NCBI GenBank assembly: GCA_964546485.1
Contig: CAZJKB010000001.1
Location: 5,140 to 40,612 of the forward strand
Length of the DNA stretch: 35,473 bases
From: an uncultured Candidatus Saccharibacteria bacterium
GTDB taxonomy: Bacteria; Patescibacteriota; Dojkabacteria; SC72
Reading direction: 5' to 3'
Shown piece by piece: positions 1,973-28,428 of this stretch (its first letter is position 1; each line of letters opens with the position of its first letter). Position numbers and translations under genes: made by a program. The notes under the pieces were generated by a model. The model was not told the origin of the DNA. It saw nothing but the letters and a program-made list of their open reading frames with translations, and did not search any database.

Positions 1973-3151
1973 TTATAATTCGATAACATACGGGCCATAT
2001 ATCCACCCATCTTTATTATCTGAATATTGTATCTTATACCAACCATTAGATTTTTCTTTCATTATTAATATTTGATTATGGTTAACCCTACCAATAGGGT
2101 TACAACCAGGTCCAGGGCATTCTCTTACATTCAAAAACCCTCCAGGGATATTAACTTTAATTAACTTTGTATTACCCTTATCTATTGTGAAGTCTATTTG
2201 AAATTCTGTATTATCTAACACATTATTAGGCAATCTTTTAACAACAAATTTTTCAGAATACTTTCCAGGTAATTGCATTGCAGATAATTGAAATACTAAT
2301 GTTACCTGTTCCCCAGGTAATACTGTCTTATTTGATATTGCTGTCGGCTTACTAAAACTTTCCCATTCACCATTTACTGCAAATTTAGAATCCCTATCTT
2401 TTAATGTTGAGACATAGATATAATCCCTATTTGTAAACCATGGGAATTTATCTACATTTTTAATAATTAATTCTACCTGTATCTTTTCACCTATCTTTGC
2501 AGACTTAGGATAGTTTATAGATATTATTTCTCCTTTTAGTTTTTGATTTGGCTTTTCATATAATTTAAGACCATTAACTAGATTATTTATGGAATCACTA
2601 AATGGATTATTAAGTTTTGTTAATCTACTTTTTGTTGTATTTCCTTCTTTTTTAACAGCCTTCAGTGACATTACAGATATTGATTTTTTTGAAACTCCAT
2701 AATCATATGAGATTGAAGATATCAAAGATTTTAATGCATCTGAGCCTAAATTAGATAATTCAGTATTCTTTGAGATGTATGCTATTAATACTCCACCCTT
2801 ATCCTCCTCAATTTCAGCGATAGCTCCAAGACCACCATATTTACCTTCTATTACATTTCCTGATTCATCTACTATATAGTTAAAAGGTATATCTGCATAT
2901 CCTAATCTAGTTATACTGTAATAGTAGATTTCATTATATAGAGATTTAATATCATCATTGAATACTGTAGCTGGTAGTTTTATAGGGACTATGTATATAT
3001 TTGTTGGTTGAGAGTATTTAATATTAGTCTTATCAGCTAATGCCTCATCAATTACCAATTCCTCCCTAGTCTTCATTGCAAACACAGGGGTTAGAAAAAG
3101 AGATAATAATATGATTGTGATTAATATTGATTTAATATTGGGCAATTTCAT
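1973..3151 (-). CDS. Secreted wall-binding protein: degenerate amidase_2/PGRP-like region, Ig-like middle domain, C-terminal SH3b
   Basis: 392-aa ORF starting at ATG. The N-terminal signal/anchor is MKLPNIKSILITIILLSLFLTPVFA. ITRLGYADIPFNYIVDESGNVIEGKYGG resembles the GW.DIGY.F.ID..G.I.EGR core of N-acetylmuramoyl-L-alanine amidase (amidase_2), but the expected flanking His residues are not evident. The C-terminal FLNVRECPGPGCNPIGRV...NGWYKIQYSDNKDGWIYGPYV fits the bacterial SH3 (SH3_3) pattern. Confidence 0.7.
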   Translation of the reverse strand: MKLPNIKSILITIILLSLFLTPVFAMKTREELVIDEALADKTNIKYSQPTNIYIVPIKLPATVFNDDIKSLYNEIYYYSITRLGYADIPFNYIVDESGNVIEGKYGGLGAIAEIEEDKGGVLIAYISKNTELSNLGSDALKSLISSISYDYGVSKKSISVMSLKAVKKEGNTTKSRLTKLNNPFSDSINNLVNGLKLYEKPNQKLKGEIISINYPKSAKIGEKIQVELIIKNVDKFPWFTNRDYIYVSTLKDRDSKFAVNGEWESFSKPTAISNKTVLPGEQVTLVFQLSAMQLPGKYSEKFVVKRLPNNVLDNTEFQIDFTIDKGNTKLIKVNIPGGFLNVRECPGPGCNPIGRVNHNQILIMKEKSNGWYKIQYSDNKDGWIYGPYVIEL

Positions 3152-3189
3152 AACTATATATTATATTTTTAAAGGAATATTATCAAGAA

Positions 3190-4221
3190 CTATTTTGATG
3201 GATAGTATACTCTTGATGGATCTATTGCATTTGTAAGGATAATCAATGGTAATTTTAGATCTTCTTTATTGAGTGTAGCTGTTCCTTCTGCTTCTATTCT
3301 ATATGTAGGTACTAATTGATTATAACTATTATCCTGATATATATATCCTAATTTTATCTTATTTCCTATTGAATTCTTATCAATATCTATACTATCAGCC
3401 AATTCGACCAATCCAATTCCTTCCTTAAGCTGTTTCGTGCTTGTTGATGTCGATTTTGGAGGATAGAAACCATAGTAAAGGGTTTTTGGATATTGTGTAT
3501 ATTTTATTGCTGCTTGAAGATAATCAAGAGTAACAATTTCAACATCTTGTGATCGTTTTGTATCTATCTGTGCAAGTAGGAGTGTACCTTCATAAAGCTT
3601 ACCAGATGAATCAACAGATACAGTATCGGAATACGATTGAAAACTATTGAAGAATAATGGATATCCATCTATACTTCTATTTGATTCAATTCTATTTAAA
3701 TACCCTGATTTAGTTATATTCTCATTTATATACTCATACTTATAACCTAAGTAATCATTAAATAATACACTTAGATATCCTTTCCCTGTGATACCATCAG
3801 TTGAAACCATTCTAGTGTTAGCTGGTTTTGTAAACTTAAAGAAAAGTGATTGATTATTTTTAATATACTCGACATAATCACCCTCTCCACTCCAAATATA
3901 GAGATTACCATCTATAGATGTTTTAGATAGATTTCCCTTACCTATTGTTATTAAGAATGAATCTATATTAGAACTCAGATTTATATCCTCAAGAGAGTAT
4001 ATTTTCATCTGCTTTGGGATATCTATAGACTTCTTTAACTCATCACTCATACTTACAACATGTGTTGTTTCTATTGAATATGGAGTATCTATTAAATATT
4101 CTCTAGGAGTTTCTTTTTTTGTTGCTTTAATAACTATATATATAATTATTGAGAAAATGAGAATAATTATACCTATTACTATTAACTGTATTCTTCTATT
4201 GTTTAAATCTATTTTTAACAT
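3190..4221 (-). CDS. N-terminally membrane-anchored extracytoplasmic protein, unknown function
   Basis: The track ORF 3190-4236 begins at a GTG. The first ATG (4219-4221, MLKIDLNNRRIQLIVIGIIILIFSIIIYIVI...) is the more likely start. It overlaps the upstream stop by 7 nt (CCATGTTAA), which suggests translational coupling. It has one TM helix followed by a beta-rich domain of about 300 aa with no cysteines. I recognise no family by eye. Confidence 0.7.
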   Translation of the reverse strand: MLKIDLNNRRIQLIVIGIIILIFSIIIYIVIKATKKETPREYLIDTPYSIETTHVVSMSDELKKSIDIPKQMKIYSLEDINLSSNIDSFLITIGKGNLSKTSIDGNLYIWSGEGDYVEYIKNNQSLFFKFTKPANTRMVSTDGITGKGYLSVLFNDYLGYKYEYINENITKSGYLNRIESNRSIDGYPLFFNSFQSYSDTVSVDSSGKLYEGTLLLAQIDTKRSQDVEIVTLDYLQAAIKYTQYPKTLYYGFYPPKSTSTSTKQLKEGIGLVELADSIDIDKNSIGNKIKLGYIYQDNSYNQLVPTYRIEAEGTATLNKEDLKLPLIILTNAIDPSRVYYPSK

Positions 4222-7187
4222 GGCGACATAGCACACTTTAATTTATCTCTATACCAAGATACAGAGTCTTGATATGTACCTTTAGATTTAACATGTAAAT
4301 GGAAGTGAGGACCAGTCCAACAAGTCACTGAATAATCACCACTTGGATCTAATCCATCTTGAGCAAGAGCAACTGCTCTTCCTTTTTGGACAGGACCTAC
4401 TGGTGCAAGAGCTTTGACATGTAAAAGAACATAAACATTTCCATCGGAGTCTTGAAATTCAAGATGACCACCATAATCTAAACCAGTTCCAGGACAATTA
4501 TTAACAGCTACATATTTTGTAATTTTTCCATTTGTAGGAGCATACCACACAGCCTTCCCTGCTGGCACAACTCTAGTTCCAATATCTATAGCTTTTGTTG
4601 ATTGGTGATATGATGAAGTACCTGCTCCATTTCCCTGTGTACATATAATTGGAGAGAATCCTAAAGGACAATCAGAATCAATAGGAGGGTAATCTCCACC
4701 CCCTGGGTTATCTGGTGGAGTAGGGAATAATCCTGCATCAGGATTATAATCTACACATTGTTTGGCACTACCAGGTGTTACATGTGCAAATGTATTATTA
4801 ACTTTTGTTGTGGGATTAAACAGCCCAACAAATCCAAATAAAAATACCAACAAAATAGCAACAAATCCCATCGCAGCAAGAAAGAAGATTTCTATCATAA
4901 ATTTACCTACTTTCATACCTAATTCTACTAGTACTGCAGATGCTATTGCTGTTAATGCACCACCTATAGGGCCACCAACACTCATACCTATTGCAGTTAA
5001 TAATTTACTAACACCAGCTTGTACTAATTGTCTAAAACCAATGCTCTTTGCTAAAAATTGTTCTACTGCTACACTATCACCGATTATCCTATTTAATAAT
5101 GTTGTCGCCCATTTTTTAATAATGGCATTATTCATAGGATTTATTTTATCTGAGATGACCCCAAAGAATCTCTCTGGAGTACTAAAAAGCTTAGTAGCAC
5201 CTGCCAATACCTTTTCAAATCTACCCAACATTGCTGCTTGGCTTGCAAATGCTCCCTTGGATTTAGCTATTTTAGATAATAGTTCTTCTAATTTCTCTGG
5301 GTTTGACAGTACCATTTTACTAAGGTCACCTGCTTTTAATTCGCCTTTATCATCAAAGAACTCCTTGATTAAAGCATATGTACCATCTTTCTTCATCTTA
5401 TCTATCATCCCACCATCTTTGAATCGACTTAAAAATTCAAGCCTATTTCTATATTGTAAGAAAGCAAATAATTCACCATTTGTTAAGCTTCCAAAAATTG
5501 TTCCTGGGTTTAAGTAATACAGATATGCAAAATTCCCATACCATGATTTAATCTCAGGATTTGGAGCTATGAATCCTTTTTTATTAAATTCTTTATATTT
5601 ATTTCCTTTTTCATCAGTCTTCCAAGTAAACATACTTTTGTTAAATGCAAGTTCACCATTGACTGATGGGTCAAACATATCACCTGTACCATAAAATCCT
5701 CTACCTCCTAAAAGAAGATTAGAAGCAAGCCCCCCTTTAATAATATTTGCATTTATTGAATCCCAAGAACCTTTCAGTGCTTCAAATCTATGTGCCCATC
5801 CTATCCTACCCATACCATTGATCTGTTGTTTCTGTAATTTGAGCAACCTTAATTTATCATCTATTTCAGATACCTTTGATGATTCACCACCAGTTCTTTG
5901 TAGGATAGAAAGTTCTGCATTGTATCTTTTTTCCAGCAGTTCTATCTCATCAAGCATAGATCTAATATATAATTTATTAGATCTTGTATCTCGACCATAA
6001 CTATTAAAAACCCTATTACCAAATCTCTTAGCATTTTTCTCAGAGTCAATAGCATTTTTTTCTAATTTCTTTAGCTGGGTTTGCATGTCATTAATTAAAG
6101 ATTTCTCTACAGGAGTTAAACTGCCTGTACCACCAATATCATTGATAATTTTTTGTACAGTTCCTATTTCTTTTTTTGCATTTTCAAATATACCTTTATT
6201 TTGAGCAGCTAACTCAATTTTTGTCATACCTGCATCCTGTGTTTTCTGAAGAACTGACATTAAACTTGCTGCCTTTAATAGTTCCTCTCTTCTCTTTCTT
6301 AATTCTGATACCTCTTGGGGAGTTGCACCAGTATTGGGATCAATTAATCTAGCTCTCTTTAATAAATTTTCAAGAGATATCTCCCTATATTTATTTGCTT
6401 GTAAATTAGCATCCTTATAGACAGCCCCATCTCCTCCTGCAGAACTTTTTATTTTAGTAACTTCATTCGTATGATCTTTAGCCACTTCAGCTGCCAAACT
6501 TCTTGCATCAGCATCTGAGAACCCTTTAGAGAAAATTTTATACAGATTTCCTTCACTAAAATCACCTGTTTTTGCATTATCTAAAAGTTCTAATGCTTTT
6601 GAGGCAATTTGTGGTTTTGCAATCAACTTATTAATAGCTATATTTTGAGCAATCTTTTTAAATGCCTCATTTTGCATATCCAGTGTTACCTGTCCTCCAG
6701 CTGCATATGCTAAATTCATAGCATTTTTCCCAGTTACACCATTCTTACTTGCCCATGCTAATGCCATTGCACCATCAATACCTTTTCCTAATGCAACAAA
6801 ATAGTTCCATTTTCTTGTCGCTTTCTCTGCATCAAACACACCATCAATGTATTTCTTAGGATTACTAAATAGTTTACCTAAGTCACTTGTTCTAACTCTA
6901 AGCCTTCCCGATGTATCAGGGTCTTTTTTATTTGGTTTACCAACATAACTTTCAAAAATTTTCTGATCTAATGCATTGTTTATTGCTCCTAATGCATTCT
7001 CACTTAAGTAAATACCTGGTTTACTCATTAATTCTGCCATTTGCTTGGCAATGATATTACTATTAGAGATATTATTATATTTTGGTGGTTTAATCTTTGG
7101 CTTTTTCTTCTTTGCTTCTTTATATAGGAAATCAAAGACCGAAGCCAATGGATCACCACTATTTTTTGATTTACCTTTTTTAGCCAT
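4215..7187 (-). CDS. Large coiled-coil membrane protein with C-terminal M23 (LytM-type) metallopeptidase domain
   Basis: 990-aa ORF starting at ATG. About 728 aa are Cys-free, Lys/Glu/Ala-rich and predicted helical, with no signal peptide. A hydrophobic block at aa 729-790 (nt 4818-5003) reads GGPIGGALTAIASAVLVELG / FMIEIFFLAAMGFVAILLVFLFGFVGLF. The C-terminal 200 aa (nt 4218-4817) carry 7 Cys and the M23 signature YHQSTKAIDIG ... GGHLEFQD ... GPHFHLHV (H..xD and HxH motifs). Confidence 0.8.
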   Translation of the reverse strand: MAKKGKSKNSGDPLASVFDFLYKEAKKKKPKIKPPKYNNISNSNIIAKQMAELMSKPGIYLSENALGAINNALDQKIFESYVGKPNKKDPDTSGRLRVRTSDLGKLFSNPKKYIDGVFDAEKATRKWNYFVALGKGIDGAMALAWASKNGVTGKNAMNLAYAAGGQVTLDMQNEAFKKIAQNIAINKLIAKPQIASKALELLDNAKTGDFSEGNLYKIFSKGFSDADARSLAAEVAKDHTNEVTKIKSSAGGDGAVYKDANLQANKYREISLENLLKRARLIDPNTGATPQEVSELRKRREELLKAASLMSVLQKTQDAGMTKIELAAQNKGIFENAKKEIGTVQKIINDIGGTGSLTPVEKSLINDMQTQLKKLEKNAIDSEKNAKRFGNRVFNSYGRDTRSNKLYIRSMLDEIELLEKRYNAELSILQRTGGESSKVSEIDDKLRLLKLQKQQINGMGRIGWAHRFEALKGSWDSINANIIKGGLASNLLLGGRGFYGTGDMFDPSVNGELAFNKSMFTWKTDEKGNKYKEFNKKGFIAPNPEIKSWYGNFAYLYYLNPGTIFGSLTNGELFAFLQYRNRLEFLSRFKDGGMIDKMKKDGTYALIKEFFDDKGELKAGDLSKMVLSNPEKLEELLSKIAKSKGAFASQAAMLGRFEKVLAGATKLFSTPERFFGVISDKINPMNNAIIKKWATTLLNRIIGDSVAVEQFLAKSIGFRQLVQAGVSKLLTAIGMSVGGPIGGALTAIASAVLVELGMKVGKFMIEIFFLAAMGFVAILLVFLFGFVGLFNPTTKVNNTFAHVTPGSAKQCVDYNPDAGLFPTPPDNPGGGDYPPIDSDCPLGFSPIICTQGNGAGTSSYHQSTKAIDIGTRVVPAGKAVWYAPTNGKITKYVAVNNCPGTGLDYGGHLEFQDSDGNVYVLLHVKALAPVGPVQKGRAVALAQDGLDPSGDYSVTCWTGPHFHLHVKSKGTYQDSVSWYRDKLKCAMSPC

Positions 7188-7198
7188 TATTAGTTATA

Positions 7199-8680
7199 TT
7201 ATCCAGCTATAAATGAACCGATAATAGGGATCTTTGCAGCAGCTTTTCTAGCCCCATCAATCGCTGTAGCGGCTCCTTTTCCACCTTCAACTTGTATGAA
7301 ATCAGCAAGGAAATTAGGAACTTCAGCAGCTAAAAAGAACATACCAATTGCAAGGAAAGCCTTTAATAAACCTCCAATTGCACCATTATCTGTTCCTCCT
7401 GCGGACCAATCACCTTGAGCTAATCCATGAGGAAAAGATATATTTATCTGATCCTGAAGTATAAATGAAGCAAGGTTTAAGAAGAGGAATACACCTGGAA
7501 ATACTAATGCATTTTTCAATACTCTCTTAAACAAATTTGATGTTAAGTTTTCTTGTCCAGGAATACTTCCAAATGCAATAACTAATGGAGCTAATATCAC
7601 ATCAATGATTATTGATAGATATGCTGTTAGCAATGTTATGTATACCCTAAATGAAGCATATGCAATTATTGCAACAAATATTAATACCAAAATTAAAAGT
7701 CCTATAATGAGACCAACACCAGCTGCTCCTGCTGTCGCAAGTGTAAAGAAACCTGCAGCAGAACCAACAATACCCATTCCTAAACCTGCAGCTGCACTTC
7801 CTCCTGCTAACCAACTACCTGTACCTGAGTCAAATAAACCTTCCATAACTGAACCTCCAAACCATAACTCTTTAACTAAGCTAATTGGATTATCAACAAA
7901 TACAGGATCAGTAACACCTAAAACCCCACCTATCACATTTGTTCCTATCATAGAAATATTCAAGATAAGACCTATAATTGCAAAACTGAATGGTACCAAT
8001 ATTAAACCGATAATAACATTAGGTAATGCATTAAATACTGTTACTGCAACTTGTCCACCAATCTTTTGTCTAAGCATGATCATAAACCCTGCAGCTATGA
8101 GTACAACAACAAATAATACATATGCAATTAAAGATGTTCTCTCCCATAAAGCATCAATACCGATTTCGGATAAAAAACTATAACCATCGGTAGCAGCATA
8201 AACTCCTGAATTTGCTTCCTCGTAGCCTGGTACCCAGTCGTTTGCCAATGCAACTGGTACATTTATTGTTGGAGTACTTTTTAACAATGCAACATTCTGC
8301 CCTTCAAAGAAATCCATAATTCCTTGTTTATTATAAGACTCAATTGTTGGATCATTTGCAACATCATCTATATTTGAGAAAACTGCTGGTGCAATAGTTG
8401 TAAGAAATGAATTAATCAAGCCAACAAAAGTATTCAAAACACCTAAATCAGAATTCGGACCTGTATCACCTGTTAAATGACCAGATACAGTACTCTGAAC
8501 CTGATAAGTTTTTTGCATATCAATAAATCCAGAAGCATTTACAGTATAAACATTCAAGATATTGAAAAGAAAAAATACTGTAGCAATAAAAGCTAGAAAG
8601 TTTTTAGCTGAGTTACTTTTAATAAAAGTAATCCCTTTTTGAATATATTTAAATATACCTATAATCAGTTCTGAGTTCAT
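7199..8680 (-). CDS. Polytopic Gly/Ala-rich integral membrane protein; its topology resembles VirB6/TrbL, but this is unverified
   Basis: 493-aa ORF starting at ATG. An N-terminal TM (FLAFIATVFFLFNILNVYTV) is followed by a soluble loop of about 130 aa, then at least 6 hydrophobic helices (LIAYVLFVVVLIAAGFMIM, VIIGLILVPFSFAIIGLILNI, GLIIGLLILVLIFVAIIAYA, IIIDVILAPLVIAFG, ALVFPGVFLFLNLASFIL, LLKAFLAIGMFFLAA). There is a glycine-rich stretch, GSWLAGGSAAAGLGMGIVGSAAGF. It lies 11 nt from the downstream gene. Confidence 0.7.
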   Translation of the reverse strand: MNSELIIGIFKYIQKGITFIKSNSAKNFLAFIATVFFLFNILNVYTVNASGFIDMQKTYQVQSTVSGHLTGDTGPNSDLGVLNTFVGLINSFLTTIAPAVFSNIDDVANDPTIESYNKQGIMDFFEGQNVALLKSTPTINVPVALANDWVPGYEEANSGVYAATDGYSFLSEIGIDALWERTSLIAYVLFVVVLIAAGFMIMLRQKIGGQVAVTVFNALPNVIIGLILVPFSFAIIGLILNISMIGTNVIGGVLGVTDPVFVDNPISLVKELWFGGSVMEGLFDSGTGSWLAGGSAAAGLGMGIVGSAAGFFTLATAGAAGVGLIIGLLILVLIFVAIIAYASFRVYITLLTAYLSIIIDVILAPLVIAFGSIPGQENLTSNLFKRVLKNALVFPGVFLFLNLASFILQDQINISFPHGLAQGDWSAGGTDNGAIGGLLKAFLAIGMFFLAAEVPNFLADFIQVEGGKGAATAIDGARKAAAKIPIIGSFIAG

Positions 8681-8718
8681 AATATCTATAATTAAATTAA
8701 CTTAAATAGTATACCAAA

Positions 8719-10104: not shown

Positions 10105-10127
10105 ATCTAGGATTTTACAATATTTCC

Positions 10128-11981
10128 TTAGAAAACTCTATCTATCATATCAATATTTTTCTTTTTTCTTTTAATAAAGAAAGACACTATTAATATGAGA
10201 GATATTAAGGAGAGAATAAATGATGGAATCCATATAGATGTTTTAGGTGTTTCATCCAGATCATCAAGTGAACCACCACCTATACCACCAGCATCATCTG
10301 TGTTAGGTACTGATGCATTATATACTCCATAACTCTTAAGTTTTGCAACTTTTACAGGCTCATTTATAGTCACTGATGATAATACTTTGAGTTGGATATC
10401 GGAATCGGATATTGAAGAGTATTTAATTGTTTCTGTATCTTTATCAAAATATCCAAGGGAAGTGATGATAATACTATCATCATTTGATGCATTGTAATAG
10501 TTTAATCCATCACTAGTCCTTATATCACCAATAGATACTATCCAATTACCTTGATCATCAGGAGTAGCAGATGATTTGGTGGATTTACCTGAACTACCAG
10601 AACCATCTTTATCTTCTATCTCTACAACTATTAAAGCATCTTTCATATTTGATACACCTGTTAGTTTTCCTGATATTGTCTTAAATTCAGGTGGTGAAGA
10701 TAGTGTTTTAAATGTTTTAACACTAAATGGTGCACTATTATTTAATATTGTTGTAGTTCCTGAGATTATTTCAAAAAAATATTCTGTTTCTGGTTGTAAT
10801 CTTGAGAGGGAAACAGAGTGCTGGTAATACTTACCTTTAGATAACATACTGTCTTTTTCATCATAACCTGTATTATCTAGTGCTTGAGCTGTGGTACCAT
10901 ACTTAATATAACCATCTTGTGCTGTATTTGTTGTCCAAGATATTGTAAATCCGGTATCTGTAAGATTTGAAATTAAGACAGATTTATCACCAATTAATAC
11001 ATTGGTTGGTACAGAGGTCTGAGCTGTTGTACCAGCAACAGGATTTATTGATACCTGCTTAACATATCTAAACACTCTAGTTCCTGTATATTCATCATCA
11101 GGATCTTCCACTATTGGTTCTTCTGGCTCTTCAACTACTGGTTCTTCAGGGGTCTCAGGTTCTTCTACAACAGGTGTTTCTGGTACTTCAGGGGTAGTTG
11201 TCTTAACTGATGCAATAATTGCATTTGCAGGGAGTATAGTTGAAACTGAAATAGTACTACTAGTATCTAGTATATATGTACTATTTAACTTACCTTCATT
11301 TGAGAATAGTTCAGAATATCTTCCTGTAATATACTTACCTGCTTCTGATTTTCCTCTAACAAATATTTTTAATTGTGTATCACTTTCAATATCAACCAAT
11401 GTACTACTTCCATCTCTAAGAGCAGAGAGGTCTATTACCCAGTTACCTGCACTACTAGAGGTAGTACTTGCAGGATACATTTTGCTTGAATCAGTAGTTA
11501 TATATACTAAATAATCATCGGATGATACACCTGTTATTGTTCCATAAACAGGTTTAGGAACTGGAGATCCAGATACTAACTTAGAAGTAGTGAATTTAAA
11601 ATCTTTACCATTTTCTGTAGTATATTTTTTTCCATTAGAAGTAATATAGAAAGAATATTCTGTTTCAGGATCTAAATCATTAATTTCAACATGATGAGTA
11701 TATCTTTTACTATTTCCTCTAATATCTAAATATGGTTTAGATTCTTTTCCATTTTTCGTAGTAACTAGAGTACCAAGGGTTTGTGCATCAGTTATCCATG
11801 TTACAGTTATAGAATTAGATGTTAGATTTGATATAACTACACCCTTTGGATCCTCTTGTGGTGCTGCTCCTGTAAAAAATTGAACTGCAAAATATGATGC
11901 TAATACTGTAAAAGGAATAGCTAAAGCAATAATTGCAGTTATTAAGAGATATCTTTTCTTTTGTTTTGACGATACATACAT
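10128..11981 (-). CDS. Surface protein with two FN3 (purple-acid-phosphatase-N-like) plus beta-sandwich modules, a Pro/Glu linker and a C-terminal hydrophobic anchor
   Basis: 617-aa ORF starting at ATG, with an N-terminal anchor YLLITAIIALAIPFTVLASYF. The FN3-like signatures are ITVTWITDAQTLGTLV...RYTHHVEINDLDPETEYSFYITSNG and FTISWTTNTAQDGYIKYG...YYQHSVSLSRLQPETEYFFEIISG. The linker is PEVPETPVVEEPETPEEPVVEEPEEPIVEDPDDE. The C-terminus is ETPKTS-IWIPSFILSLISLILIVSFFI-KRKKKN. Confidence 0.8.
   Translation of the reverse strand: MYVSSKQKKRYLLITAIIALAIPFTVLASYFAVQFFTGAAPQEDPKGVVISNLTSNSITVTWITDAQTLGTLVTTKNGKESKPYLDIRGNSKRYTHHVEINDLDPETEYSFYITSNGKKYTTENGKDFKFTTSKLVSGSPVPKPVYGTITGVSSDDYLVYITTDSSKMYPASTTSSSAGNWVIDLSALRDGSSTLVDIESDTQLKIFVRGKSEAGKYITGRYSELFSNEGKLNSTYILDTSSTISVSTILPANAIIASVKTTTPEVPETPVVEEPETPEEPVVEEPEEPIVEDPDDEYTGTRVFRYVKQVSINPVAGTTAQTSVPTNVLIGDKSVLISNLTDTGFTISWTTNTAQDGYIKYGTTAQALDNTGYDEKDSMLSKGKYYQHSVSLSRLQPETEYFFEIISGTTTILNNSAPFSVKTFKTLSSPPEFKTISGKLTGVSNMKDALIVVEIEDKDGSGSSGKSTKSSATPDDQGNWIVSIGDIRTSDGLNYYNASNDDSIIITSLGYFDKDTETIKYSSISDSDIQLKVLSSVTINEPVKVAKLKSYGVYNASVPNTDDAGGIGGGSLDDLDETPKTSIWIPSFILSLISLILIVSFFIKRKKKNIDMIDRVF
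11094..11195 (-). repeat. Imperfect short tandem repeat encoding the Pro/Glu-rich interdomain linker
   Basis: On the + strand, the octamer ggttcttc occurs at 11116-11123, 11140-11147 and 11158-11165, with spacings of 24 and 18 nt. On the coding strand this gives repeated (E)EP(E/V) units, aa 263-296 of the 617-aa protein. Confidence 0.6.
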
Positions 11982-12048
11982 ACTAAATATGAATATACTT
12001 TATACTAAAAGATATCATGAAAACATCTTAATGTGTATATATTAATTG

Positions 12049-12366
12049 TTATTTTATAAAGCCTTTAATAAAAGATGATATTGATCTAATAGGAACAATT
12101 AATACTTCGTTGAATTCATCTATTGTATTTTTTATATTTCCTAAACTACCTTTAAGTCCTGAAACAACTTCAGATGTATCATCAACTATTTTTCTTGCAC
12201 CTCTGATTATTTCTCTACTATCTTGAATAGTTCCTTGTACTTCTTTTAGAGTATTTGTACTTTCTTTAACAAGCATTGCTACATAGTATAGTATTAATGC
12301 AAGCATTCCTGATAGTACTCCAATAACTATCATCCAATATAGTGCAGGTATTGTGTTTGTATCCAT
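12049..12366 (-). CDS. Small single-pass membrane protein with a coiled-coil tail (DUF948-like by eye)
   Basis: 105-aa ORF starting at ATG. The N-terminal TM is ALYWMIVIGVLSGMLALILYYVAML. It is followed by a heptad-like helical region, KESTNTLKEVQGTIQDSREIIRGARKIVDDTSEVVSGLKGSLGNIKNTIDEF. It lies 18 nt downstream of the 1320-aa gene. Confidence 0.6.
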   Translation of the reverse strand: MDTNTIPALYWMIVIGVLSGMLALILYYVAMLVKESTNTLKEVQGTIQDSREIIRGARKIVDDTSEVVSGLKGSLGNIKNTIDEFNEVLIVPIRSISSFIKGFIK

Positions 12367-12384
12367 AATTATAAATATATAAAA

Positions 12385-15300
12385 TTAATTAGAACCTGGT
12401 TTACCATGAGAAGAACCTCCTGGATTCCAAATTATCGATTTGGTATTATTATCTGTTCCCTCAAATTTAACTATTCTTACAAAATATCCTAGATCTCTTG
12501 ATATTGGGAAATCAAATCCATAGGTAGTTCCATCAGATACTTGTAATCCCTCATATTTACCTTTTGATGTTGGCCACCATGTTACATTATCTGCTGTTAA
12601 TCCACCAACAGAATTAATAGAATCAATAAATGATTTAGCTGTATATGTTGTTGTATAACCATTAACACCTACTAAGTTCCAACCTGATGAAAGAGCTACA
12701 GGTATAGAAGATTTAATATTTAATGCTGGAATATCCATTGAAAAATCAAAGTTTGATTGTAATAAATAACCTCGTCCTAATACTAATGTGAAATCATTAC
12801 CAATAAACTTAGAAAAATCACTCTCATTTACTCCAATACCTGATACCCATTTTCCTCCCTCAAAATATGAAATACTTTTTATGAAATTACCATTAAAATT
12901 TAAAAGCTTTAGTAATTCACCTGCAGTCATAGGTTTACTCCCATCCGAAGATAGTATTGCTGGGAATGAGACAATATTAATACCTCTTTTCAAGTTTAAT
13001 TTAAAATTCGAAGATATCTTCTCAACAATTATATCTTCACTTGTTAAATCTATTAATTCATCTCCAGCTGTTAAACCTTTATAACCATCTTTTTCAACAT
13101 ACAGAGAAATATCTGAATCTGTATTTGGAATAGAATATTTGAAATCCTTGCCATCAACCTTAATTGAGTATATTCCTGCCTCAGGGAATAGCTTTAATGT
13201 TCGAACATTAGCATCAACACCTAGTACAGAGGTAATACCTTTAACATTTGAATTAGCTACACATTCACTTTTTGTTTTTCTTAATGCATCATTTACTAGA
13301 TTACCACTACATTTCTTTTCTCCCCAGCTACTTAATTTTGTTTCAGTATTATAACAGCAATAACCACAACTCTGAATATCTCTATCAGTCGAGGTCCAAC
13401 CAGTTCCGACTCCATTAGCATCGGACCATCGTAACTCACCATTCATATTCCCACTCCAACACACTTTCTGATACAAATCCATATTCACAGAATTACTTGA
13501 ATCACTATTAATACAACTATACTGTGTAGTTAAGTTAGGGAAGCTTTTCAATTTATCTTTCTTGATTCTTGGATCATTATGTAGCAGCCACGATGAAATA
13601 TAATATGTACCAAAATCTTTTCCATAACAACCATAACCTTTTGATCCCAAGTCAATATTGGAACAATCTGCATAGCCAACAACCTTTTCATTAGATTCAC
13701 ATTTTGAGTCTGTATGCATAGAGTTATCAGTTCTTTGACAACATACCTTTTGATTAGAAAATGCACAGAAGGCATTATCCCTAATCTTGCCTCCAGATAC
13801 TTCACAAGCATTTCGAGTTTTTGGGGTTGAACTATTTGAACAACAAATTTTAGACATTTCTACTGGTTTAATATCTTCACATTTTCCTTTTCCTAAAATC
13901 TCCTGATCAACCCTACAATATGAAGCATTAACTAAACTCCCATCACTAGTTTTACAACATACTGCTTGATTAGGGATAGAACAGTATCCAGAATCTATTT
14001 CTTTGGTACATTCTGATTTTTTCTTTAATATTCCAGTAATATTGTTTCCTCCAGTCCTTTGACAACATACTTTTTCATTTAAGTACTCATTTAAATCACC
14101 ACAATATTTTTGTCCCGTTTGTAAATCAAGTAATAAATAATATGAAGACCCAACCTCAAGATTGGCTGAACAACTTAATGATATATTACCAACAACATCA
14201 GGTGCACAACCTGTAGGTTTATCAAATCTATCTAATTCTATATGATAAAACTTCTTACAACTCTTACCATCCCATTTACCTGTTGAAGGATCACAATTAG
14301 TCTTACCACTTGATGCAGTACATTCACCTGTACTTTGATCCTCTGGAATTACAGGAGGAATAACAACAACTTTTTTACTACACTTATTGGTATAATCTGC
14401 ACAGTTCTCGGTTTTTGATATATTGAAAGTATCCGAACCACCATCTGTAGTATAACCAGGTTTTATATTACTACATTTACATTGTATTTGATCATTCTCA
14501 GGTTCCGGAGCTAAATCAGGAATTGAAGTAGGATTGTATATACCAATACATTTTTTCAAGTCTTTATCAAAAGCAGAACCCTCAGAACATGTATAACAAA
14601 CTCCATTACATACAGTTCCTTTTTCTTCTTTACATCCCTTAACATCGGGTACAAATGTTTGATTGGTCCCATTACAACTATCTGGTCTTGTATTAATATT
14701 AGATGCACTAACATCTTCACAACCCACAGGAATTGCTAAATTATTATCTTTATAATACTTTACACTTTTACATAATTGACCGTTAGATTGAACTTTTGGT
14801 GTACAATCACCGCCAACACATTCTATTTCTCCTCTTGAATAATTTGCACATGATGCAGGTCTACAATCATCACCTATTTTATAATACTTACTTGCAGATT
14901 TACTATAACAGTAACAGCCAGCATTCTCTGTACAATCTTTCGCCAGCTCACCACTACAATCATTTGGTATTGCCTTATTATCTACATTTGTTGTTCCCCC
15001 AGACTGTGGATATATCCTACATTTAGTAGTAGACCCATCTAGACAACCATAAGGACAATCCTGTGCACAATTAAACTCCTTTTCTCTTGAAACACAATTC
15101 CCTTTTGCATTACATTTATGAGTTGCTTGATTACAAGTTGCTGCAGAACATGTTGCACTAGTAGATCCGCCCCCATTGTTAGGTGTTGTAGTTTTCTTTG
15201 TGCAAGACCATCTGCCTGTTGCTCCTCCTGGAACACATTGACATTCATAATCTCCTTCTGTTCTTTTTTCACCAAAATACTTCGAATTACATACATCACC

Positions 15301-16347
15301 AGATTTAGTTGCATATACATCACTACTAATAATATCTATTAGTTGAGATTGCATAATCTTTTCATCAATAAATATCTCAAATTTCTTAAAAATATCTCCC
15401 CTATATTTATCAGGAACTCCACCAAGAATATTATCTGCAGGACTATCATTTTTACCCCATATATACTGGGTCTGATATACCTCTTTTATATTTTCAACCT
15501 GTGCTGATATCTTTAGATAGTCAATATTATCTTTATAGTAGTTAGTTGCAAGTGATCCATCATTTTTTCGAAAATTTGATTTATCAATTGTCCAACCAGC
15601 ATCCTTATTAGTTACAGAAGAAAGTACATTAGAGATTTCTTTATCATCTCCATAGGCATACATAAATACTATGGAATCGGTATTTAGGTTCTCTTCAATA
15701 AACCCATCTTTATTATATACACCTGATAATACTTTTCCGTATGCAGGATTAGGTGTTGGTATATTTTCTGGTTCTGAGAATGTATTAAAAGAAAAAGTAT
15801 CAATTGTTTTGAATTCATACTCTCCAATATTTTGTTTTACACTATTAATATTCCAACTTCTTAACCCATTTGAAACTCTAAAATAGTATTTAGTATTAGG
15901 ATTTAAGTTAAATATTGTTGCATGATGTACATAATATTTTCCAAGTTTAGTTACTTTAATATTTTCGAAATCTTGAGAGTCTATCTCTGAATTATATTCA
16001 CTATCTACATTTTTAAGTGCATCTTTAGTTATTTTTTCAAGTCTTTCTGATAGTGCTTGATTATAATCTCTATCATCATAACCTTTTGTATACCCACTCC
16101 AAGGAAAGAATTCATCTTTATCATTTGCCAAAACTACTCCACTATCTGCCCTATCAGTTACCCATGATATTGTCGCAGAACTTCCTGTAATATTTGATAC
16201 CCTAACCTTAAGAGGTGTATTTGTTAATGAATATACTAATGATACTAAAAGATACCCCAATCCAAGTATAATTCCAATCAATAAAACATATTTAAGAACA
16301 CCCCAGACAACTTGTTTAACTCTTGTGATATTTAGTGCAAATTTCAT
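12385..16347 (-). CDS. Giant (1320 aa) membrane-anchored surface protein: FN3 plus beta-sandwich module, a cysteine-rich core of about 680 aa, and a duplicated C-terminal beta module
   Basis: Starts at ATG. The N-terminal anchor is VWGVLKYVLLIGIILGLGYLLVSLVY. The FN3-like signature is ATISWVTDRADSGVVL...YYVHHATIFNLNPNTKYYFRVSNG. All of the roughly 62 Cys lie between aa 353 and 1029 (nt 13261-15294), with none before or after. A CC-containing module is repeated five times (VCCQRT, VCCKTS, ICCSNS, VCCQRT, YCCYNT). Confidence 0.85.
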   Translation of the reverse strand: MKFALNITRVKQVVWGVLKYVLLIGIILGLGYLLVSLVYSLTNTPLKVRVSNITGSSATISWVTDRADSGVVLANDKDEFFPWSGYTKGYDDRDYNQALSERLEKITKDALKNVDSEYNSEIDSQDFENIKVTKLGKYYVHHATIFNLNPNTKYYFRVSNGLRSWNINSVKQNIGEYEFKTIDTFSFNTFSEPENIPTPNPAYGKVLSGVYNKDGFIEENLNTDSIVFMYAYGDDKEISNVLSSVTNKDAGWTIDKSNFRKNDGSLATNYYKDNIDYLKISAQVENIKEVYQTQYIWGKNDSPADNILGGVPDKYRGDIFKKFEIFIDEKIMQSQLIDIISSDVYATKSGDVCNSKYFGEKRTEGDYECQCVPGGATGRWSCTKKTTTPNNGGGSTSATCSAATCNQATHKCNAKGNCVSREKEFNCAQDCPYGCLDGSTTKCRIYPQSGGTTNVDNKAIPNDCSGELAKDCTENAGCYCYSKSASKYYKIGDDCRPASCANYSRGEIECVGGDCTPKVQSNGQLCKSVKYYKDNNLAIPVGCEDVSASNINTRPDSCNGTNQTFVPDVKGCKEEKGTVCNGVCYTCSEGSAFDKDLKKCIGIYNPTSIPDLAPEPENDQIQCKCSNIKPGYTTDGGSDTFNISKTENCADYTNKCSKKVVVIPPVIPEDQSTGECTASSGKTNCDPSTGKWDGKSCKKFYHIELDRFDKPTGCAPDVVGNISLSCSANLEVGSSYYLLLDLQTGQKYCGDLNEYLNEKVCCQRTGGNNITGILKKKSECTKEIDSGYCSIPNQAVCCKTSDGSLVNASYCRVDQEILGKGKCEDIKPVEMSKICCSNSSTPKTRNACEVSGGKIRDNAFCAFSNQKVCCQRTDNSMHTDSKCESNEKVVGYADCSNIDLGSKGYGCYGKDFGTYYISSWLLHNDPRIKKDKLKSFPNLTTQYSCINSDSSNSVNMDLYQKVCWSGNMNGELRWSDANGVGTGWTSTDRDIQSCGYCCYNTETKLSSWGEKKCSGNLVNDALRKTKSECVANSNVKGITSVLGVDANVRTLKLFPEAGIYSIKVDGKDFKYSIPNTDSDISLYVEKDGYKGLTAGDELIDLTSEDIIVEKISSNFKLNLKRGINIVSFPAILSSDGSKPMTAGELLKLLNFNGNFIKSISYFEGGKWVSGIGVNESDFSKFIGNDFTLVLGRGYLLQSNFDFSMDIPALNIKSSIPVALSSGWNLVGVNGYTTTYTAKSFIDSINSVGGLTADNVTWWPTSKGKYEGLQVSDGTTYGFDFPISRDLGYFVRIVKFEGTDNNTKSIIWNPGGSSHGKPGSN

Positions 16348-16378: not shown

Positions 16379-16408
16379 TATATAACTATGTATTTAACTT
16401 AATGTCAA
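16379..16408 (-). promoter_or_regulatory. Candidate sigma70-type promoter for the eight-gene surface cluster
   Basis: The minus strand reads TTGACA (complement of 16403-16408), an 18-nt spacer, then TATATA (complement of 16379-16384). This sits about 30 nt upstream of the ATG at 16347. The background is very AT-rich, so the -10 assignment is soft. Confidence 0.4.
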
Positions 16409-28388: not shown

Positions 28389-28428
28389 TCATTGCATTAT
28401 CATTCAATACTATTGTATATTAGTATTA

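What the first reader, a model, noticed from the sequence alone, without database searches (positions are those of the whole stretch)
1973..16347. Eight co-directional envelope genes (14.4 kb) with no housekeeping identity: candidate uncharacterised cell-surface or host-interaction apparatus
All eight ORFs lie on the minus strand. Going downstream from the 1320-aa gene, the gaps are 18, 67, 23, 38 and 11 nt, then a 7-nt overlap, then 38 nt. The last gene ends only 26 nt before the uvrD/pcrA start. A TTGACA-containing promoter candidate sits at the head of the cluster (16379-16408). Every product has a signal peptide or TM segment. In transcription order they are:
- a 1320-aa FN3 plus Cys-rich giant
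- a 105-aa single-pass coiled-coil protein
- a 617-aa double-FN3 surface protein
- a 461-aa secreted Cys-containing protein
- a 493-aa Gly-rich polytopic membrane protein
- a 990-aa coiled-coil protein with a C-terminal M23 peptidase
- a 348-aa anchored protein
- a 392-aa amidase-like/SH3b wall binder

Cysteines occur almost only in the predicted extracytoplasmic parts (about 62, 13, 7 and 2 Cys respectively), which suggests disulfide-stabilised exoproteins. The cluster therefore pairs a membrane channel-like component and two peptidoglycan-directed domains with very large adhesin-like proteins. It contains no ATPase, transposase, integrase or phage structural gene, and it is flanked by core genes (helicase, rsmE).

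My inference is a dedicated envelope machine for attachment to, or breaching of, another cell's wall, or for remodelling the organism's own wall. That would suit a reduced-genome episymbiont. I could not match the ensemble to any described secretion, pilus or conjugation system.
Basis: partly seen in the sequence, partly recalled or inferred. Interest (0 to 1): 0.85.

Follow-up and report, generated by a model that had tools for sequence, protein, structure and literature searches.

The report
Split-off type IV secretion envelope module

Summary
Eight co-directional minus-strand genes (1973-16347) have the stated gaps, TM/signal segments and Cys counts. They sit between rsmE and uvrD.

The cluster is not orphan. 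The same gene order recurs in dozens of Dojkabacteria species genomes at the same chromosomal site. A shorter paralogous copy (461-493-990-348) lies between queA and tgt in two other Dojkabacteria genomes.

- **493-aa protein:** the confident AlphaFold model has TrwI/VirB6 of the R388 T4SS as its best PDB match. It belongs to a family of about 8,000 clusters. Distant members in other CPR lineages sit beside VirB2-like pilin arrays, and in two loci also beside PrgI/VirB3, TraC-like and VirB4 genes.
- **990-aa protein:** it carries a membrane-anchored M23 peptidase with catalytic residues conserved. This is a VirB1-like role.
- **392-aa protein:** a PGRP/amidase-fold domain that has lost its zinc ligands, plus SH3b.
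- **Unassigned:** the 348-, 461- and 105-aa proteins and the large non-FN3 parts of the 1320- and 617-aa proteins.
- **Absent:** no VirB4, VirB3 or pilin gene lies within 10 kb in any of 80 related loci.

Best reading: a split-off VirB6 / wall-hydrolase / adhesin module of the known Patescibacteria T4SS, which makes it a new variant of a known kind. An autonomous, ATPase-independent machine is not excluded.

The parts
16379..16408 (-). Candidate sigma-70-type promoter (TTGACA, 18 nt, TATATA). It lies in the 100-nt divergent intergenic region shared with rsmE.
   Evidence: Read directly from the sequence. The consensus scanner did not pass it because the last base of the -10 hexamer is A. Function is inferred only.
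12385..16347 (-). 1320-aa surface protein. It has an N-terminal TM anchor (aa 10-43), an FN3 domain (aa ~45-165; nt 15853-16215), a variable Cys-rich middle (62 Cys, aa 353-1029; nt 13261-15291) and a conserved C-terminal domain of ~230 aa with no known relative (aa ~1090-1310; nt 12418-13080).
   Evidence: Family alignment A9: FN3/Pur_ac_phosph_N in 22 of 22 members and nothing else; no PDB hit beyond FN3. The gene is absent in some related loci (no match to it in L024) and tandemly duplicated in L049.
12049..12366 (-). Function unknown.
   Evidence: Only sub-threshold DUF948 and StbC hits. Conserved in 57 related loci. Not related to T4SS pilins by hhalign.
10128..11981 (-). 617-aa surface protein. 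It has an N-terminal signal/TM, two FN3 domains (aa 45-118, nt 11628-11849; aa 338-423, nt 10713-10970), a Pro/Glu-rich linker, and a C-terminal TM anchor with a basic tail (aa 580-606, nt 10164-10244). No Cys and no LPXTG motif.
   Evidence: Conserved in 61 related loci.
8719..10104 (-). 461-aa secreted protein with 13 Cys, at least eight of them invariant across the family. Fold unknown. It always lies directly upstream of the VirB6-like gene, including in the 4-gene paralogous module.
   Evidence: No Pfam, NCBIfam or PDB hit. Positions.
7199..8680 (-). 493-aa Gly-rich polytopic membrane protein. VirB6/TrbL-like and the core of the cluster.
   Evidence: AF2 model pLDDT 82.6. Foldseek against PDB: ranks 1-3 and 8 are R388 stalk-complex entries (ranks 1-3 named TrwJ/VirB5-TrwI/VirB6); 8rt9_F has prob 1.00, E = 0.034, TM(target) 0.47. 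BFVD matches include TrbL entries. Sporadic sub-threshold TrbL and TrbL_5 Pfam hits occur in relatives. hhalign against an MPF-T VirB6 alignment is weak (Prob 18 %, E = 0.0014). Distant relatives lie in T4SS loci. The family has 7,997 representative clusters.
4215..7187 (-). 990-aa protein with three parts: a ~727-aa Cys-free N-terminal region without a signal peptide, a hydrophobic block (aa 728-796; nt 4800-5006), and an extracytoplasmic Cys-containing M23-like metallopeptidase (aa ~845-975; nt 4263-4655).
   Evidence: Family profile against PDB M23 enzymes: 8s3m 7e-5, 9gy1 8e-4, ShyA 0.012. BLASTP to the M23 domain of L003:18009-21164 (E = 3e-6), which passes Pfam M23 (37.5 bits). H861, D868, H923, H961 and H963 are conserved in 29-36 of 42 orthologues. 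The N-terminal region has no recognised relative.
3190..4236 (-). 348-aa (343 from the ATG at 4221) bitopic protein: an N-terminal TM, then an extracytoplasmic domain of ~300 aa with unknown fold. It always follows the 990-type gene.
   Evidence: No Pfam or PDB hit. The AF2 model is unusable (pLDDT 41). Relatives follow the 990-like gene in L007 (E = 3e-10) and in L003 (E = 0.0016).
1973..3151 (-). 392-aa secreted wall binder. It has a PGRP/amidase_2-fold domain without zinc ligands (aa ~41-159; nt 2675-3031), a middle domain, and a C-terminal SH3b (aa 339-389; nt 1985-2137).
   Evidence: Pfam SH3_3 at 2e-11. Family profile against PDB: PGRPs at 5e-5 to 5e-4, T7 lysozyme at 0.46, SH3b of 4krt at 2e-8. 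No His appears among the invariant or at-least-90 %-conserved columns.
1..1946 (-). uvrD/pcrA-type helicase gene (runs off the window). It starts 26 nt downstream on the same strand with no terminator between, so it is probably co-transcribed.
   Evidence: uvrD lies directly downstream in all 49 related loci that reach it (38 of them with a 4-254-nt gap).

Best explanation
**What it is.** The cluster is the Dojkabacteria version of the membrane, cell-wall and surface half of the Patescibacteria type IV secretion system. It is encoded as its own operon at a fixed chromosomal site, away from the virB4-type ATPase genes.

**Shown**
- The 493-aa protein has a VirB6/TrbL-like fold.
- The 990-aa protein exposes an apparently active M23 endopeptidase outside the membrane.
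- The 392-aa protein has a non-catalytic PGRP-like domain plus SH3b.
- The 617- and 1320-aa proteins are membrane-anchored FN3 surface proteins.
- The order 461-493-990-348 is the conserved core.

**Inferred**
- The VirB6-like protein oligomerises into the membrane platform or channel, as TrwI does in R388.
- The M23 protein cuts peptide cross-links locally, so that the apparatus can span the cell's own wall and perhaps attack the host's. This is the VirB1 role. In pCF10 the T4SS wall hydrolase is PrgK.
- The 348-aa bitopic protein acts as a scaffold. It sits where Tn916 Orf13 sits, after the hydrolase.
- The secreted disulfide-rich 461-aa protein sits on the VirB6 platform. It occupies the gene position that VirB5 holds upstream of VirB6 in R388.
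- The 392-aa protein fixes the assembly to peptidoglycan.
- The FN3/Cys-rich proteins act as adhesins, as PrgA/B/C do at the head of the pCF10 operon.
- Energy and substrate recruitment would come from VirB4, and possibly a coupling protein, encoded elsewhere in the genome.
For: **VirB6-like fold**
- The confident model (pLDDT 82.6) has R388 stalk-complex entries (TrwJ/VirB5-TrwI/VirB6) at ranks 1-3 of 350,542 PDB chains (ranks 1-3 prob 0.69-1.00), with another R388 entry at rank 8; no non-T4SS chain exceeds prob 0.15.
- BFVD matches include entries named TrbL and TrbL/VirB6.
- Three different family members give sub-threshold Pfam hits to TrbL or TrbL_5 (E = 5e-4 to 6.5e-3).
- hhalign places the family's aPl...W...N motif on the GPlF...W...N motif of MPF-T VirB6.

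**Genomic context of relatives outside Dojkabacteria**
- PF18895 T4SS_pilin genes lie within 10 kb in 6 of 8 loci.
- PrgI, TraC-like and VirB4 genes are present in 2 of 8 loci.

**Core conserved across CPR classes**
- A 990-like gene followed by a 348-like gene occurs next to VirB6-like and pilin-like genes in L007, and next to an M23 protein in Pacebacteria locus L003.

**M23 domain**
- Supported.

**Gene-order parallels**
- On pCF10, the Tn916-type region runs membrane protein, lysozyme/C40, conjugal transfer protein.
- pCF10 itself places adhesin genes before channel genes.
- R388 places VirB5 and then VirB6.

**Synteny**
- The cluster is syntenic across dozens of Dojkabacteria species genomes.

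**Literature (PMC12102498; PMC11665869)**
- VirB4 is present in 2,417 of 3,035 Patescibacteria genomes, including Dojkabacteria genomes (Table S1).
- VirB6 is reported as scarce or absent in Microgenomatia, attributed to 'extreme sequence divergence'.
- VirB1 homologues often carry M23 and are usually not near virB4.
- The T4SS is essential in a Saccharibacterium.
Against: - **No other T4SS genes nearby.** No VirB4, VirB3/PrgI, TraC/TrsD, coupling protein or VirB2-like pilin is in the window or within +/-10 kb in any of the 80 related loci. A functional link to VirB4 is therefore inferred, not shown.
- **Weak sequence and structure scores.** The VirB6 similarity is weak: Foldseek E = 0.034 and TM 0.30 (query) / 0.47 (target). 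hhalign gives only Prob 18 %. No Pfam hit exists for the window protein. The family HMMs do not hit R388 or pCF10 proteins.
- **No match to Gram-positive T4SS families.** None was found for the 348-, 461- and 105-aa proteins, the 990-aa N-terminal region, or the 1320-aa protein. The 348-aa model failed.
- **Possible independent modules.** Some genomes hold two or three paralogous modules (L019/L065, L021, L090). This would also fit machines that work independently of the single T4SS ATPase set.
Confidence: 0.58

Rival explanations
1. An autonomous envelope apparatus that evolved from T4SS parts. A VirB6-like platform plus a peptidase and adhesins would work without VirB4, for example as a host-attachment and wall-breaching or nutrient-uptake structure of an episymbiont.
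For: - The module is never next to an ATPase gene in 80 loci.
- It is a self-contained operon at a fixed housekeeping site.
- It occurs in two or three paralogous copies per genome.
- The enzymatic C-terminus of the 990 family is swappable: two orthologues carry an HExxH-motif domain instead of M23.
- The large adhesin gene is variable, being absent or duplicated in some loci.
Against: - In other CPR classes the same VirB6-like family lies inside loci with pilin arrays, VirB3 and VirB4.
- All known VirB6 proteins work within VirB4-powered systems (PMC12857230).
- T4SS genes scattered over a genome are known elsewhere, such as Rickettsia (cited in PMC12102498).
Confidence: 0.22
2. A machine for remodelling the organism's own wall, for example in cell separation or elongation. 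A membrane-anchored M23 peptidase would be regulated from the cytoplasm, in the manner of FtsEX-EnvC/PcsB, with a PG-binding partner. The other genes would be wall-associated accessories.
For: - The cluster contains an M23 peptidase with a long N-terminal region and a membrane anchor, and a PGRP-like/SH3b wall binder.
- It sits among core housekeeping genes and is vertically inherited.
- The window also holds yceG, lytR and sortase genes.
Against: - The VirB6-like fold and the T4SS neighbourhoods of relatives are not expected for a divisome hydrolase.
- No FtsE/FtsX, FtsZ or other division genes are in the cluster.
- Large FN3/Cys-rich surface proteins and a variable adhesin-like gene fit interaction with another cell better.
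Confidence: 0.12
3. A remnant of a prophage tail or a mobile element. The 990-aa protein would be a tape-measure-like protein with an M23 tip, and the FN3 proteins would be fibre-like.
For: - Weak PHROG hits: phrog_7767 metallo-endopeptidase at E = 0.003 for the 990-aa protein, and phrog_788 tail protein at E = 0.002 for the 105-aa protein.
- The best BFVD match of the 493-aa model is Bacillus phage G gp153.
Against: - No capsid, terminase, portal, integrase or other phage genes.
- No relative of the 493-aa family in 2.9 million IMG/VR contigs.
- The chromosomal position is identical across a whole class.
- GC content is uniform with the flanks.
Confidence: 0.02

Closest known systems
Patescibacteria (CPR) type IV secretion system, MPF-FATA-related (Quinonero-Coronel et al. 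2025, PMC12102498; Saccharibacteria T4SS reported essential in Ca. Southlakia epibionticum, as summarised in PMC11665869 and PMC12857230)
   Same: - It occurs in monoderm CPR hosts and includes a VirB6-type polytopic protein.
- Its wall hydrolases are often of M23 type and usually encoded away from virB4.
- It has no relaxase.
- Relatives of the 493-aa protein lie in such loci, next to VirB2-like pilin arrays, PrgI and VirB4.
   Different: - Here there is no VirB4, VirB3, TrsD/TraC or pilin gene in the operon or within 10 kb.
- The VirB6-like protein falls below Pfam thresholds.
- It is joined to seven other conserved genes (FN3/Cys-rich surface proteins, a PGRP/SH3b binder, the 461-aa and 348-aa proteins). 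None of the papers I read describes these.
- The core is duplicated in some genomes.
R388 Trw T4SS stalk (TrwI/VirB6 pentamer with TrwJ/VirB5; PDB 7o3v, 8rt9)
   Same: - It is the best structural match of the 493-aa model.
- In both, a secreted protein gene lies directly upstream of the VirB6-type gene.
   Different: - Similarity is weak (TM 0.47 on the target) and there is no sequence-level hit.
- The 493-aa protein is larger, with an extra N-terminal extracytoplasmic helical region.
- The 461-aa protein shows no detectable relation to VirB5.
- The host is a monoderm without an outer-membrane core complex.
Gram-positive conjugation modules: pCF10 (PrgA/B/C adhesins, PrgH-VirB6, PrgK hydrolase, PrgL-VirB8) and Tn916 (Orf15-Orf14-Orf13)
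   Same: - The gene-order logic matches. Adhesins come first and channel genes follow, and the order is polytopic VirB6-like, then wall hydrolase, then bitopic protein.
- The hydrolase is large and multidomain.
   Different: - The hydrolase here is M23 only. The pCF10 hydrolase gene is annotated 'phage tail tip lysozyme' and the Tn916-type one 'lysozyme/C40 family peptidase'.
- There is no LPXTG anchoring.
- No homology was detected between the 348-aa family and Tn916 Orf13.
- The cluster is not on a mobile element, and it lacks VirB4, VirD4 and a relaxase.
M23 (LytM/lysostaphin-type) peptidases and PGRP/amidase_2 domains
   Same: - The M23 motif residues are conserved.
- PGRP-fold similarity is seen across many PDB entries.
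   Different: - The first His-Asp pair has H-x6-D spacing instead of HxxxD.
- The M23 domain is tethered by a TM block to a ~727-aa region of unknown function.
- The PGRP-like domain has no conserved His or Cys zinc ligands.

Membership tests
Type IV secretion system (any MPF class) | VirB4-family ATPase, the only universal hallmark | tested here: not met
   No ATPase domain occurs in any of the eight proteins or elsewhere in the window. phmmer with two CPR VirB4 proteins finds none in the 80 Dojkabacteria loci of +/-10 kb. VirB4 is reported for Dojkabacteria genomes elsewhere (Table S1 of PMC12102498), but I could not inspect those loci.
Type IV secretion system (any MPF class) | VirB6-type polytopic membrane subunit | tested here: met
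   Met at fold and context level. TrwI/VirB6 is the top PDB match of a model with pLDDT 82.6. TrbL entries appear among the BFVD matches. Relatives lie in T4SS loci.
Type IV secretion system (any MPF class) | Dedicated peptidoglycan hydrolase (VirB1 role) | tested here: met
   The 990-aa protein has an M23-like domain with conserved catalytic residues. The enzyme class differs from the classical lytic transglycosylase. M23-bearing VirB1 homologues are reported in Patescibacteria (PMC12102498).
Type IV secretion system (monoderm type) | VirB3-like, VirB8-like and coupling-protein subunits | tested here: inconclusive
   No PrgI/VirB3 or T4CP homologue was found. The 348-aa bitopic protein is a positional candidate for VirB8/TcpC. 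It gives no profile hit to PDB and none to Tn916 Orf13, and its model failed (pLDDT 41).
Patescibacteria T4SS | VirB2-like pilin (PF18895/PF04956) genes, often in arrays | tested here: not met
   No Pfam pilin hit occurs in the eight proteins. phmmer with 8 CPR pilin queries finds none in the Dojkabacteria loci. hhalign of the 105-, 348- and 461-aa families against a 19-pilin alignment gives Prob < 1 %.
Pfam TrbL/VirB6 (PF04610 and relatives) | Score above the curated Pfam threshold | tested here: not met
   The window protein gives no hit at E <= 0.1. Among 77 relatives scanned, only three sub-threshold hits appear (TrbL at 0.0065 and 0.0024; TrbL_5 at 5e-4). hhalign against a 9-sequence MPF-T VirB6 alignment gives Prob 17.8 %, E = 0.0014.
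Peptidase M23 | Zn-binding and catalytic residues (H...D, H, HxH) in an M23 fold | tested here: met
   The family profile hits PDB M23 enzymes (7e-5, 8e-4, 0.012). H861, D868, H923, H961 and H963 are conserved in 29-36 of 42 orthologues. The window protein itself is below Pfam detection, and the first motif has atypical H-x6-D spacing.
N-acetylmuramoyl-L-alanine amidase (amidase_2 / PGRP) | PGRP fold plus the His/His/Cys zinc site needed for catalysis | tested here: not met
   The fold is supported by more than 20 PGRP entries in PDB at E = 5e-5 to 2e-2. No His is conserved in the domain, and the conserved Cys residues lie only in the SH3b region. My estimate of where the T7-lysozyme ligands fall rests on my own knowledge of that enzyme.
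Phage tail / tape-measure module | Co-located phage structural genes; presence in viral genomes | tested here: not met
   PHROG hits are only weak. No phage genes are in the window. No relative of the 493-aa family is in IMG/VR.
Sortase-dependent surface proteins / pili | C-terminal LPXTG-type sorting signal | tested here: not met
   Read from the translations. The 617-aa protein ends in a TM segment plus a basic tail with no LPXTG before it. The 1320-aa protein has no C-terminal hydrophobic segment. A sortase gene lies 10 kb away, but no link is shown.

The most novel reading that the evidence does not exclude
The operon, together with its 4-gene paralogue 461-493-990-348, is a self-sufficient envelope organelle derived from T4SS parts. 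It would work without a VirB4 motor: a VirB6-type platform carrying a disulfide-rich cap, a tethered and swappable peptidase 'warhead', and variable adhesins. Dojkabacteria would use it to dock on a host cell and open its wall. Co-transcription with a UvrD/PcrA helicase might hint at DNA handling.
Probability: 0.2. Interest if true: 0.75.

Novelty: new variant of a known kind. Interest (0 to 1): 0.52.

Why it matters
The T4SS is essential in the one genetically tractable Patescibacterium, yet its function is called 'completely unknown' (PMC11665869).

The 2025 survey could not find VirB6 in large parts of the phylum and found almost no VirB8 or adhesins (PMC12102498). The family defined here has about 8,000 clusters at 50 % identity. 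It would supply the missing VirB6 for Dojkabacteria and at least some Microgenomatia.

It would also name a conserved set of partner proteins:
- a tethered M23 peptidase;
- the 348-aa bitopic protein;
- the 461-aa disulfide-rich secreted protein;
- a PG binder;
- FN3 adhesins.

These are concrete candidates for the parts of the machine that touch the wall and the host. The finding also shows that the envelope half can be encoded, and duplicated, apart from the ATPase half. That bears on how these systems are detected in genomes.

Tried and rejected
- **Family libraries.** Pfam, NCBIfam, PHROGs and PADLOC on the eight proteins gave only FN3, SH3b and weak noise.
- **Single-sequence PDB searches.** The whole 990-aa protein and its C-terminus alone found nothing useful. 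Only the family profile worked.
- **Word-indexed homologue searches.** The 990- and 348-aa queries returned only 3 proteins each, so no deep alignment could be handed to the structure predictor.
- **348-aa model.** With 3 sequences it failed (pLDDT 41). I did not fold-search it because the result would be meaningless. The idea that it is VirB8/TcpC-like therefore stays untested.
- **Profile searches against PDB.** The 348-, 461- and 1320-aa families gave nothing beyond FN3.
- **hhalign of the 493-aa family.** Against single TrwI or PrgH sequences the result was insignificant. Against a 9-sequence VirB6 alignment it was weak.
- **hhalign against pilins.** The 105-, 348- and 461-aa families were negative.
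- **hhalign against Tn916 Orf13.** The 348-aa family was negative.
- **Family HMMs against R388 and pCF10 ORFs.** No hits.
- **Phage or mobile-element origin.** Rejected.
- **Defence system.** Rejected.
- **RNA features.** No tRNA or Rfam match in the window.
- **Dojkabacteria virB4 loci.** I could not inspect them.

Full report
**1. Observation**

The eight minus-strand ORFs, their lengths, gaps and overlap are as described. The uvrD/pcrA start lies 26 nt after the last stop. The 348-aa ORF is 343 aa if the ATG at 4221 is used, and that start gives the 7-nt overlap.

A TTGACA-18-TATATA site sits at 16408-16379 in the 100-nt divergent region shared with rsmE. It fails the scanner's rule for the -10 hexamer. 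Promoter-like sites are fewer here than in shuffled sequence, so this is a positional candidate only. No terminator-like site falls in an intergenic gap on the coding strand.

Hydrophobic segments and Cys counts (62, 13, 7, 2) are confirmed. GC content is uniform with the flanks. The rest of the window is housekeeping: rsmE, rsmB/F, pnp, rpsO, infB, ylxR, nusA, dnaJ, a sortase, a solute-binding protein, a Big-domain protein, alaS, ruvX, yceG and lytR.

**2. Source and conservation**

The identical 493-aa protein is on a JGI metagenome contig. Its homologues are annotated, where named, as Candidatus Dojkabacteria / candidate division WS6.

A scan of one genome per GTDB species found 511 loci encoding a relative. 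The best 80, nearly all Dojkabacteria, were kept with 10-kb flanks.

| Family | Loci hit by phmmer (of 86) | Loci hit by family HMM (of 86) |
|---|---|---|
| 493 | 86 | 86 |
| 990 | 72 | 82 |
| 461 | 47 | 69 |
| 617 | 61 | 61 |
| 1320 | 43 | 61 |
| 105 | 57 | 57 |
| 348 | 35 | 55 |
| 392 | 49 | 50 |

Both searches of six-frame ORFs show the order 1320-105-617-461-493-990-348-392 on one strand in locus after locus. Most gaps in these counts are contig ends.

The wider neighbourhood is also fixed: nusA-infB-rpsO-pnp, then rsmB-rsmE on the other strand, then the cluster, then uvrD directly downstream. The cluster is therefore a vertically inherited core locus of the class, not an island. The 1320-aa gene is the variable member. 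It is missing in some loci (for example L024) and tandemly duplicated in L049.

**3. The 493-aa protein**

No library recognises it.

*Family size.* A profile of 105 homologues finds 7,997 representative clusters at E <= 1e-3, of which 2,770 are at <= 1e-30, among 1.84 billion representatives.

*Structure.*
- AlphaFold2 with that alignment gives a confident all-helical model (pLDDT 82.6).
- Foldseek against 350,542 PDB chains puts R388 T4SS stalk-complex entries (TrwJ/VirB5-TrwI/VirB6) at ranks 1-3, and another R388 T4SS entry (Stalk-Arches-IMC) at rank 8. The best, 8rt9_F, has prob 1.00, E = 0.034, 314 aligned columns and a target-normalised TM of 0.47. Apart from rank 8, every later chain scores prob 0.15 or below.
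- Against viral predicted structures, the named high-probability matches include 'TrbL Type IV secretory pathway' (prob 0.98) and 'TrbL/VirB6'.

*Sequence.*
- Sequence-level support is weak. Three of 77 relatives give sub-threshold Pfam hits to TrbL or TrbL_5.
- hhalign against an alignment of R388 TrwI and eight plasmid homologues gives Prob 18 %, E = 0.0014. It places the family's conserved aPl...W...N stretch on the GPlF...W...N stretch of VirB6.
- The family HMM does not hit TrwI or PrgH.

*Context.* Context supplies the independent argument.
- In Daviesbacteria (L004) and a related contig (L005), the distant homologue follows an array of six PF18895 T4SS_pilin genes. It lies 4-5 kb from PrgI, TraC-like and VirB4 genes.
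- In Pacebacteria (L003) it follows pilin genes and lies near a 1051-aa Pfam-positive M23 protein.
- L007, L088 and L089 also carry pilin-family genes within 10 kb.
- L006 and L090 do not.

I conclude that the protein is VirB6-like, with confidence of about 0.7-0.75.

**4. The other proteins**

*990 aa.*
- The C-terminal ~150 aa align to the M23 domain of the Pacebacteria protein (E = 3e-6).
- The family profile hits PDB M23 enzymes (7e-5, 8e-4, 0.012).
- The motif residues H861, D868, H923, H961 and H963 are kept in 29-36 of 42 orthologues.
- Across the family, the 580-800 residues before the hydrophobic block hold 0-1 Cys, and the ~200 residues after it hold 3-13.
- There is no N-terminal signal peptide. 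The likeliest topology is N-terminus inside and peptidase outside, but the number of TM helices in the 35-80-residue block is unresolved.
- Two orthologues (in L033 and L055) have a different C-terminal domain with an HExxH motif and no Pfam hit.

*392 aa.*
- The family profile matches more than 20 PGRP structures over aa ~41-159 (best 5e-5) and SH3b domains at the C-terminus (2e-8).
- No His is conserved in the PGRP-like part, so it is most likely a binder and not an amidase.

*617 and 1320 aa.*
- FN3 domains are confirmed.
- The 1320-aa family has a conserved FN3 head next to the membrane anchor, a variable Cys-rich middle and a conserved ~230-aa C-terminal domain without relatives.

*461, 348 and 105 aa.*
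- There are no hits of any kind.
- The 461-aa family has at least eight invariant Cys.
- The only structure prediction I could make for the 348-aa protein failed (3-sequence alignment, pLDDT 41).

**5. The conserved core**

Two other Dojkabacteria genomes (L019, L021) carry a second, shorter module: 461-like, 493-like, 990-like and 348-like. It lies between queA and tgt, downstream of a run of seven short ORFs whose sizes resemble the rpsM-rpsK-rpsD-rpoA-rplQ-rplM-rpsI block annotated in L007 (my reading of ORF sizes; those ORFs were not scanned). This module also has no ATPase gene.

Another CPR lineage (L007) has rpsI, a 905-aa gene, the VirB6-like gene, two pilin-like genes, a 1511-aa protein whose C-terminus matches the 990 family (7e-21), a 348-like gene (3e-10) and yidD. 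In L003 the M23 protein is followed by a 348-like ORF (E = 0.0016). L090 has a VirB6-like gene followed by an 842-aa protein that matches only the N-terminal part of the 990 family.

So VirB6-like, then the large tethered-enzyme protein, then the 348-type bitopic protein forms an ancient unit. The FN3 proteins, the 105-aa protein and the PG binder are Dojkabacteria additions.

**6. Comparison with known systems**

The Patescibacteria T4SS is described as an MPF-FATA-related system (PMC12102498). That survey reports the following:
- VirB4 is present in about 80 % of genomes.
- VirB2-like pilin arrays are common.
- VirB1 homologues often carry M23 and are mostly not near virB4.
- VirB8 is rarely detectable.
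- VirB6 is 'scarce or absent' in Microgenomatia and Gracilibacteria, 'suggesting extreme sequence divergence'.

Its Table S1 lists Dojkabacteria genomes as VirB4-positive. The system is essential in a Saccharibacterium, and its role is unknown (PMC11665869; PMC12857230).

Gene order here parallels three known systems:
- the Tn916-type segment on pCF10 (membrane protein, lysozyme/C40, conjugal transfer protein);
- pCF10 itself (adhesins PrgA/B/C ahead of the channel genes);
- R388 (VirB5, then VirB6).

These are analogies of arrangement. No homology was detected for the 348-, 461-, 617- or 1320-aa proteins.

**7. Verdict**

The cluster is best read as the envelope half of the Dojkabacteria T4SS: a VirB6-like platform, a tethered M23 wall-cutting enzyme, a probable scaffold, a secreted disulfide-rich partner, a PG anchor and FN3 adhesins. 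It is encoded apart from the ATPase half (confidence about 0.58).

Membership in 'T4SS' cannot be claimed outright. The hallmark VirB4 is not in the cluster, and I could not examine where it lies in these genomes. An autonomous T4SS-derived apparatus (about 0.2) and an own-wall remodelling machine (about 0.12) remain open. A phage or mobile origin is effectively excluded.

The claim that nothing known matches does not. I rate the finding a new variant of a known kind, of moderate interest. It plausibly identifies the 'missing' VirB6 family of part of the CPR, together with a conserved set of uncharacterised partner proteins.

Noticed in passing
L019:8495-15624 and L021:8535-15169 (other Dojkabacteria genomes): A second, paralogous 4-gene module (461-like, 493-like, 990-like, 348-like) lies between queA and tgt, downstream of a run of short ORFs that looks like a ribosomal-protein/rpoA block (by ORF sizes only). 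L007, from another CPR lineage, has a related module right after rpsI.
   Followed up: partly
L033:11202-13865 and L055:11220-13766 (orthologues of window 4215-7187): In two orthologues of the 990-aa protein, the C-terminal M23 domain is replaced by a different Cys-containing domain with an HExxH motif (HELIH / HEVTH). It has no Pfam hit. This suggests a swappable extracellular enzyme module.
   Followed up: partly
window 12385-16347; L024, L049: The 1320-aa FN3/Cys-rich gene is the variable member of the operon. It was not detected in several related loci (for example L024). It is tandemly duplicated in L049 (76-3078 and 3111-6203).
   Followed up: partly
L038:7874-11371: Two VirB6-like genes stand in tandem in one Dojkabacteria locus.
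   Followed up: no
window 1-1946 (and 49 related loci): A uvrD/pcrA-type helicase gene always follows the cluster on the same strand, with a gap of a few to a few dozen nt and no terminator. It is probably co-transcribed. Whether this has a functional meaning (PcrA-type helicases serve some Gram-positive conjugative elements) or is only conserved synteny is unknown.
   Followed up: partly
window 20824-21945 (-): A 373-aa ORF with no Pfam hit lies between infB and rpsO. Judging from ORF start positions, there is no room for such a gene at this spot in some related loci (for example L024).
   Followed up: no
window 26294-30657 (+): A sortase gene overlaps the start of a solute-binding-protein gene. 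Next comes a 742-aa protein with Big_7 and Big_13 domains, a TM segment near aa 495-520, and a long, low-complexity C-terminal tail rich in Glu, Gln, Pro and Thr.
   Followed up: no
L001:918-1227 versus window 12049-12366: The source's own gene calls split the 105-aa ORF into 44- and 46-aa genes. The 105-aa family is conserved in 57 related loci, so the single ORF is the better call.
   Followed up: partly
relatives of window 7199-8680 (alignments A1, A3): Besides TrbL, a few family members give weak Pfam hits to DUF6861 (best 2.3e-5) and to the TrbC/VirB2 pilin family (0.005-0.015). These remain unexplained.
   Followed up: no
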